Source of the DNA: Escherichia coli
GTDB taxonomy: Bacteria; Pseudomonadota; Gammaproteobacteria; Enterobacterales; Enterobacteriaceae
Strand: one strand, 5' to 3'
NCBI RefSeq assembly: GCF_048403405.1
Contig: NZ_CP183129.1
Length of the DNA: 64,000 nt
Shown here: in pieces, positions 22,972 to 23,048 of the stretch
Layout of the letters: each line of letters starts with the position of its first letter
Numbering within the stretch: the first letter of the stretch is position 1
The notes under the pieces: generated by a model
The model's input: the letters and a program-made list of their open reading frames with translations, nothing else
What the model was told of the DNA's origin: nothing
Database searches by the model: none
Translations under genes and position numbers: made by a program

Positions 22972-23048
22972 CGCGGGGTGGAGCAGCCTGGTAGCTCGTC
23001 GGGCTCATAACCCGAAGGTCGTCGGTTCAAATCCGGCCCCCGCAACCA
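22972..23048 (+). tRNA. metY: Initiator tRNA-fMet (anticodon CAT), with G at canonical position 46
   Basis: 77-nt sequence CGCGGGGTGGAGCAGCCTGGTAGCTCGTCGGGCTCATAACCCGAAGGTCGTCGGTTCAAATCCGGCCCCCGCAACCA; C1:A72 mismatch and three G:C pairs in the anticodon stem are initiator hallmarks; first gene of the metY-rimP-nusA-infB operon. Confidence 0.97.

What the first reader, a model, noticed from the sequence alone, without database searches (positions are those of the whole stretch)
22972..23048. metY initiator tRNA carries G46 (fMet1-type) rather than the K-12 metY A46 (fMet2-type)
The variable-loop sequence is CCCGAAGGTCGTCGG, giving G at canonical position 46 (window coordinate 23018). In K-12 the metY copy differs from the metZWV copies by having A46 (tRNAfMet2), whereas E. 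coli B-type strains carry G46 at metY. This is a second lineage marker, independent of the aga locus.
Basis: partly seen in the sequence, partly recalled or inferred. Interest (0 to 1): 0.3.

Follow-up and report, generated by a model that had tools for sequence, protein, structure and literature searches.

The report
Ordinary ancestral metY initiator tRNA allele
The window's metY initiator tRNA gene does carry G at position 46, but this is the normal, ancestral state in about 93% of complete E. coli genomes and across related bacteria, so it only shows that the strain is not laboratory K-12 and does not point to E. coli B.

Summary
Observation confirmed. metY lies at 22972-23048 (+), and canonical position 46 (window 23018) is G. 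MG1655 has A there, the only difference in 221 bp. REL606 (E. coli B) metY is identical to the window.

The interpretation as a lineage marker is weak. Among 5,426 complete E. coli genomes, A46 occurs in 365, once each. All sampled cases are K-12 or its clone. K-12's nearest non-K-12 neighbours at this locus (2-7 differences in 24 kb) already have G46. The A46 48-mer is absent from representative genomes of about 100,000 species. G46 is therefore ancestral, and A46 is a mutation private to K-12.

The window is not from a B strain. It is 98.2% identical to both REL606 and MG1655, which are 99.4% identical to each other. It is 100% identical over 25 kb to human clinical isolates such as strain 4621. 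In strain 4621 all three metZWV copies equal the window's metY, so this lineage probably makes a single initiator tRNA species.

The K-12 versus B difference has been published since 1992. Low interest.

The parts
22847..22890 (+). metY promoter P-1 (-35 TTGACA at 22850-22855, 18-nt spacer, -10 TATAAT at 22874-22879)
   Evidence: Exact match to the experimentally mapped P-1 sequence printed in PMC6511841. It matches the consensus at 12 of 12 positions in the promoter scan.
22925..22966 (+). metY promoter P0 (TTTGCA, 18-nt spacer, TAGAAT at 22927-22956)
   Evidence: Matches the published P0 sequence (PMC6511841) except at 22934, where the window has T and the published sequence has C. MG1655 is identical to the window here. 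The promoter scan scores it 9 of 12.
22972..23048 (+). metY, the initiator tRNA-fMet gene (77 nt, anticodon CAT, encoded CCA end)
   Evidence: ARAGORN and Rfam RF00005 at 61.4 bits. Initiator hallmarks are present: C1xA72, A11:U24 and G29-31:C39-41. Annotated as tRNA-Met in the near-identical strain 4621.
23018..23018 (+). Canonical position 46 in the variable loop: G (tRNAfMet1 type). K-12 has A here.
   Evidence: Census.
23048..23089 (+). Internal promoter P2, immediately 3' of metY
   Evidence: Exact match to the published P2 sequence in PMC6511841.
23137..23237 (+). rimP leader with two terminator-like hairpins (23170-23193 and 23218-23230)
   Evidence: Rfam RF01770 at 102 bits, E = 5e-18. 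Terminator scan. I equate these hairpins with the terminators drawn between metY and rimP in Figure 1 of PMC6511841; this is an inference.
23255..23707 (+). rimP, the first protein gene of the metY-rimP-nusA-infB operon
   Evidence: Annotation of strain 4621, which is collinear with the window, and translation of the ORF.

Best explanation
This is the ordinary, ancestral allele of metY, the single-copy initiator tRNA gene that heads the metY-rimP-nusA-infB operon. It encodes a tRNA identical to the products of metZWV, so the cell makes one initiator species (tRNAfMet1 type). G46 lies unpaired in the variable loop. In E. coli tRNAfMet1 this base is 7-methylguanosine; here that modification is inferred from published work, not shown. 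The unusual allele is the K-12 one: A46 (tRNAfMet2) is a G-to-A transition that arose on the terminal branch leading to the K-12 clone. A G at window 23018 therefore says only that the source strain is not K-12. The source is a human extraintestinal or clinical lineage about 1.8% diverged from both K-12 and B.
For: Shown directly: identity and coordinates of the tRNA, and its initiator hallmarks. The only difference from MG1655 is at 23018, and REL606 is identical. A 55-mer census, which seeds only when the central base matches, gave A46 in 365 of 5,426 genomes at one place each and G46 at 20,809 places in 5,425 genomes. Their sum, 21,174, equals all the initiator-gene places found. Five A46 genomes labelled as non-laboratory isolates carry A46 at metY and are 0-2 mismatches from MG1655 over 24 kb. 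The four genomes ranked just beyond the K-12 clones differ from MG1655 at only 2-7 sites in 24 kb; all have G46, and position 46 is one of those sites. Among representative genomes of about 100,000 species, the A46 48-mer has 0 hits. Strain 4621 differs from the window by 3 SNPs in 50 kb, and its three metZWV genes are identical to the window's metY. From the literature: m7G46 versus A46, and the roughly 75:25 pool in K-12 (PMC3017606, PMC5389676, PMC8887418).
Against: The census covers complete RefSeq genomes only. These are enriched for laboratory K-12, so 93% is probably an underestimate of the natural G46 frequency. Only 65 of the 365 A46 genomes were inspected, 60 by name and coordinates and 5 by sequence, so an independent A46 in a non-K-12 lineage is not strictly excluded. 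The metZWV copies were read in a proxy genome, not in the window's own genome. Methylation of G46 in this strain was not and cannot be tested here.
Confidence: 0.95

Rival explanations
1. G46 at metY marks the source strain as a member of, or close relative of, the E. coli B lineage.
For: REL606 metY is identical to the window's. The literature frames G46 at metY as a B-strain trait (PMC3017606, PMC6511841).
Against: The window is 98.23% identical to REL606 and 98.28% to MG1655 over about 46-48 kb, while REL606 and MG1655 are 99.43% identical to each other. The best matches are clinical isolates at 100%, and no B strain is in the top 40. G46 is present in about 93% of genomes, so it does not discriminate between lineages.
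Confidence: 0.02
2. A46 was ancestral at metY, and G46 in this lineage results from gene conversion by the metZWV copies.
For: The four genes are identical, as conversion would produce.
Against: G46 occupies the rimP-linked position in 52 species from Enterobacteriaceae to Pseudomonas. The A46 48-mer is absent from all species representatives. K-12's closest neighbours, 2-7 SNPs away in 24 kb, have G46. Parsimony puts one G-to-A change on the K-12 branch.
Confidence: 0.01
3. The base call at 23018 is a sequencing or assembly error.
For: None.
Against: About 70% of an even sample of 5,425 genomes carry the same 221-bp sequence at 100% identity. Five independent assemblies match the window over 25 kb with the full bit score (46167), and a sixth, MS 69-1, scores 46161.
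Confidence: 0.01

Closest known systems
E. coli tRNAfMet1 (products of metZ, metW and metV; also metY of E. coli B and MRE600)
   Same: The 77-nt sequence is identical to REL606 metY and to the three metZWV genes of the near-identical strain 4621. It has G at position 46.
   Different: Nothing at the sequence level. It is encoded at the metY locus, not at metZWV.
E. coli K-12 tRNAfMet2 (metY, b3171)
   Same: Same locus, the same promoters P-1 and P2, the same operon, and 76 of 77 bases identical.
   Different: K-12 has A46, which cannot become m7G, so K-12 has a second, electrophoretically separable initiator species making up about 25% of the pool (PMC5389676, PMC8887418). The window has G46.

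Membership tests
Bacterial initiator tRNA (tRNAfMet) | Anticodon CAU in a cloverleaf tRNA | tested here: met
   ARAGORN reports tRNA-Met (cat). Rfam RF00005 scores 61.4 bits against a gathering score of 29. The MFE fold is a cloverleaf at -30.3 kcal/mol.
Bacterial initiator tRNA (tRNAfMet) | Mismatch at 1:72 (C1xA72), the formylation determinant | tested here: met
   C at 22972 and A at 23044.
Bacterial initiator tRNA (tRNAfMet) | Three consecutive G-C pairs in the anticodon stem (G29-31:C39-41) | tested here: met
   GGG at 23001-23003 and CCC at 23011-23013. The role of this feature is described in PMC5389676.
Bacterial initiator tRNA (tRNAfMet) | A11:U24 pair in the D stem | tested here: met
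   A at 22982 and T at 22996. That this pair is typical of initiators is from my own knowledge.
metY locus (as opposed to metZWV) | Single copy between argG and rimP-nusA-infB, with promoters P-1, P0 and P2 | tested here: met
   Gene order. Promoter matches to PMC6511841. rimP leader RF01770.
tRNAfMet1 type | G at position 46 | tested here: met
   Window 23018 is G.
tRNAfMet1 type | G46 carries the m7G modification | not testable with these tools
   This needs RNA mass spectrometry or chemical probing. It is inferred from E. coli tRNAfMet1 (PMC8887418, PMC3017606).
E. coli B lineage | metY encodes G46 | tested here: met
   Identical to REL606. The feature is shared by about 93% of E. coli, so it does not define the lineage.
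E. coli B lineage | Flanking chromosome near-identical to a B reference | tested here: not met
   819 mismatches in 46.4 kb against REL606 (98.23%), whereas REL606 and MG1655 are 99.43% identical.

The most novel reading that the evidence does not exclude
The textbook description of two initiator tRNA species in E. coli reflects a single G-to-A mutation private to the K-12 clone. It is absent from all other complete E. coli genomes examined and from representative genomes of about 100,000 species, and it arose after K-12 split from wild relatives that differ by only 1-6 other SNPs in the surrounding 24 kb. The large body of initiator-tRNA work built on plasmid-borne K-12 metY therefore uses a variant that lacks m7G46, which natural E. 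coli does not have. This concerns K-12, not the window. The window simply carries the wild type.
Probability: 0.85. Interest if true: 0.2.

Novelty: already known. Interest (0 to 1): 0.05.

Why it matters
It matters very little for this window, which carries a wild-type housekeeping tRNA gene. The practical lesson is for strain typing: metY position 46 identifies K-12 (A46) and cannot be used to assign a strain to E. coli B or to any other lineage. As a side product, the census shows how narrowly the tRNAfMet2 allele is distributed. That is a useful caveat for anyone generalising from K-12 initiator tRNA work, or treating any strain with G46 at metY as a B strain, as PMC6511841 does for MRE600.

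Tried and rejected
1. My first census 55-mer put the A at canonical position 45 by mistake. It found only 3 genomes, including ETEC H10407, where the variant is in the middle metZWV gene. I discarded it for the main question and re-ran it correctly.
2. Reading the primary paper failed. Mandal & RajBhandary 1992 (PMC207499) is not in the library, so it is cited only through papers that reference it.
3. My first guess at the metZWV position in strain 4621 (1.02-1.07 Mb) was wrong. The second guess found it.
4. A locus-specific census of position 46 was not possible. Any query reaching the flank also seeds on the flank, so I could not prove for all 365 genomes that the A46 copy is metY. This was shown for 5 of 5 genomes fetched, and by the MG1655-like coordinates in several sampled rows.
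5. I considered assigning a phylogroup or sequence type to the source strain but did not attempt it, because the Clermont markers lie outside the window.
6. I considered a structural effect of G versus A at position 46. The predicted secondary structure and energy are identical, as expected for an unpaired variable-loop base. Tertiary effects cannot be tested with these tools.

Full report
**The observation**

ARAGORN finds two tRNA genes in the window: leuU-type tRNA-Leu(GAG) at 19105-19191 and tRNA-Met(CAT) at 22972-23048, both on the + strand. Rfam confirms the second as a tRNA (RF00005, 61.4 bits). The 77-nt sequence is CGCGGGGTGGAGCAGCCTGGTAGCTCGTCGGGCTCATAACCCGAAGGTCGTCGGTTCAAATCCGGCCCCCGCAACCA.

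It has the hallmarks of a bacterial initiator tRNA:
- a C1xA72 mismatch
- an A11:U24 pair
- G29-G31:C39-C41 in the anticodon stem
- a CAU anticodon

The variable loop proper is AGGTC (positions 44-48).

- Over 221 bp centred on the gene, MG1655 (NC_000913.3, metY b3171) differs from the window at a single base, window 23018, where K-12 has A (repeated).
- REL606 (E. coli B) metY is identical to the window.
- The literature agrees. In E. coli K the two species differ only at position 46, m7G in tRNAfMet1 and A in tRNAfMet2. In E. coli B all four genes encode tRNAfMet1 (PMC3017606; also PMC5389676, PMC8887418 and PMC6511841, all citing Mandal & RajBhandary 1992, which I could not open).
- The observation and its factual premises are therefore correct and were already published.

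**How informative is G46? A census of complete genomes**

I searched 5,426 complete E. coli genomes with 55-mers centred on position 46. Megablast needs an exact 28-base word, and only 27 bases flank the centre on each side, so a hit requires the central base to match.

| Query | Result |
|---|---|
| A46 55-mer | 365 genomes, exactly one place each |
| G46 55-mer | 20,809 places in 5,425 genomes, median 4 per genome |
| 221-bp metY locus | 21,174 places in total (20,809 + 365) |

- The evenly spaced sample of 60 A46 genomes is dominated by K-12 derivatives: MG1655, DH10B, MC4100, C600, HB101, XL1-Blue, Keio strains and O16:H48.
- 5,420 genomes hold the full metY locus, so about 93% carry G46 there.
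- The collection is enriched for laboratory K-12, so the natural frequency of G46 is probably higher.

**Is A46 found outside K-12?**

- Five A46 genomes have non-laboratory labels: chicken meat, duck, human gut, hospital and oil palm. All carry A46 at the argG | tRNA-Met | rimP locus. They are 0-2 mismatches from MG1655 over 24 kb, against 75-77 for REL606 and about 364 for the window. Around this locus they are K-12 itself.
- I then ranked all genomes by similarity to the K-12 24-kb flank and fetched four ranked just beyond the K-12 clones.
- FDN-9, LR-64-2, Ec-050-T5-MAC and O6:H16 M9682-C1 differ from MG1655 at only 2, 3, 4 and 7 sites. All four have G46, and position 46 is one of those few sites.
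- A46 is therefore a terminal-branch G-to-A change private to the K-12 clone.

**Outgroups**

- Among one representative genome for each of about 100,000 species, the 48-mer with A46 has no match.
The list includes Escherichia albertii, Citrobacter, Enterobacter, Klebsiella, Pantoea, Dickeya, Vibrio, Aeromonas, Shewanella, Pasteurellaceae and Pseudomonas.
- In 52 of these loci the tRNA lies about 170-260 bp upstream of a rimP homologue on the same strand, the metY-equivalent position.
- G46 at metY is therefore ancestral across Gammaproteobacteria. This also rules out the idea that G46 here results from gene conversion of an ancestral A46.

**What lineage is the window?**

- It is not B. The window is 98.23% identical to REL606 (819 mismatches in 46.4 kb) and 98.28% to MG1655. 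REL606 and MG1655 are 99.43% identical to each other.
- Window 1-25000 matches human isolates TUM14771, GN02461, 4621 (blood, Houston), TUM1226 and OX030728 at 100% identity with the full bit score. MS 69-1 is also listed at 100.0% with a slightly lower score. The next tier is at 99.4%.
- Strain 4621 differs from the window by 3 SNPs in 50 kb.
- In strain 4621 the metZWV triplet (L131 47496-47793, next to mltA) consists of three genes identical to the window's metY. This lineage therefore most likely makes a single initiator species.

**Anatomy and mechanism**

The gene sits in its canonical context: secG-leuU-yhbX-argG(-)-metY-rimP-nusA-infB-rbfA-truB-rpsO-pnp.

| Feature | Window coordinates | Evidence |
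|---|---|---|
| Promoter P-1 | 22847-22890 | Exact match to the mapped sequence in PMC6511841; perfect TTGACA-18-TATAAT |
| Promoter P0 | 22925-22966 | One spacer difference at 22934; MG1655 is identical to the window here |
| metY | 22972-23048 | |
| Promoter P2 | 23048-23089 | Exact match to PMC6511841 |
| rimP leader | 23137-23237 | RF01770, 102 bits; two terminator-like hairpins |
| rimP | 23255-23707 | |

- Position 46 is unpaired. Swapping G for A leaves the predicted fold and its energy (-30.3 kcal/mol) unchanged.
- That G46 is methylated to m7G in this strain is inferred from E. coli tRNAfMet1 (PMC8887418) and was not tested.

**Verdict**

The base is real and differs from K-12 as stated. 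It is the wild-type, ancestral state and has no power to indicate B ancestry; it only excludes K-12. The polymorphism has been known since 1992. Interest is low. The one mildly useful by-product is the census showing that tRNAfMet2 is restricted to the K-12 clone.

Noticed in passing
window 47919-49599, compared with MG1655 locus L124 1-2075: In the window, agaI (48832-49599, minus strand) directly abuts rsmI (47919-48782). K-12 has the yraHIJK fimbrial genes between them (yraJ and yraK are visible), and these are absent here. By the annotation of strain 4621, the aga cluster downstream is the complete form (agaI-D-C-B-kbaY-agaS-nagA/agaA-agaF-E-W-V-kbaZ, then agaR).
   Followed up: partly
window 23137-23237: A full-length match to the Rfam rimP leader (RF01770, 102 bits) between metY and rimP. 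It contains two terminator-like hairpins, at 23170-23193 and 23218-23230.
   Followed up: partly
L133 (ETEC H10407, NC_017633.1) 2483-2559: A mistaken query revealed a G45A variant in the middle gene of the metZWV triplet of ETEC H10407 (and the identical record SEC470), and in one further genome, 18AR0366. That is 3 of 5,426 genomes. For 18AR0366 the gene carrying it was not checked.
   Followed up: partly
L131 (strain 4621) 42189-47417, outside the window: In strain 4621, five genes sit between amiC and the metZWV triplet: a PRD-domain regulator, a PTS EIIC, a MalY/PatB-family protein, a KpsF/GutQ-family isomerase and a phosphoglycerate dehydrogenase. In ETEC H10407, amiC is directly adjacent to the tRNA genes.
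   Followed up: no
window 10830-10837 (cgtA/obgE-dacB intergenic region): MG1655 and REL606 each carry about 150 bp between obgE and dacB that the window lacks (152 bp in MG1655, L124 39167-39318). This may be a repetitive extragenic element. It was not examined.
   Followed up: no
window 44151-44280 (yraQ-dolP intergenic region): About 130 bp do not align to either MG1655 or REL606 at the blastn threshold used, so this intergenic segment is divergent.
   Followed up: no
window 22934: In the P0 promoter spacer, the window and MG1655 have T, where the sequence printed in PMC6511841 has C. That paper reports a one-base difference between K-12 and MRE600 at this spot.
   Followed up: partly
E. 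coli genome collection: Five of 5,425 genomes lack a full-length metY locus match (for example IR53017, where only the tRNA body matches). Initiator-gene places per genome range from 1 to 8, and four lie on plasmids. So the copy number of initiator tRNA genes varies in a small minority of strains.
   Followed up: no
loci L035, L036, L060, L075, L110 and others: The exact 48-nt 3' portion of the E. coli initiator tRNA (G46 form) also occurs in contigs labelled Desulfosporosinus, Exiguobacterium, Oscillospiraceae and a Streptomyces MAG. This reflects either extreme conservation of the initiator tRNA or contamination of MAGs. I did not resolve which.
   Followed up: no
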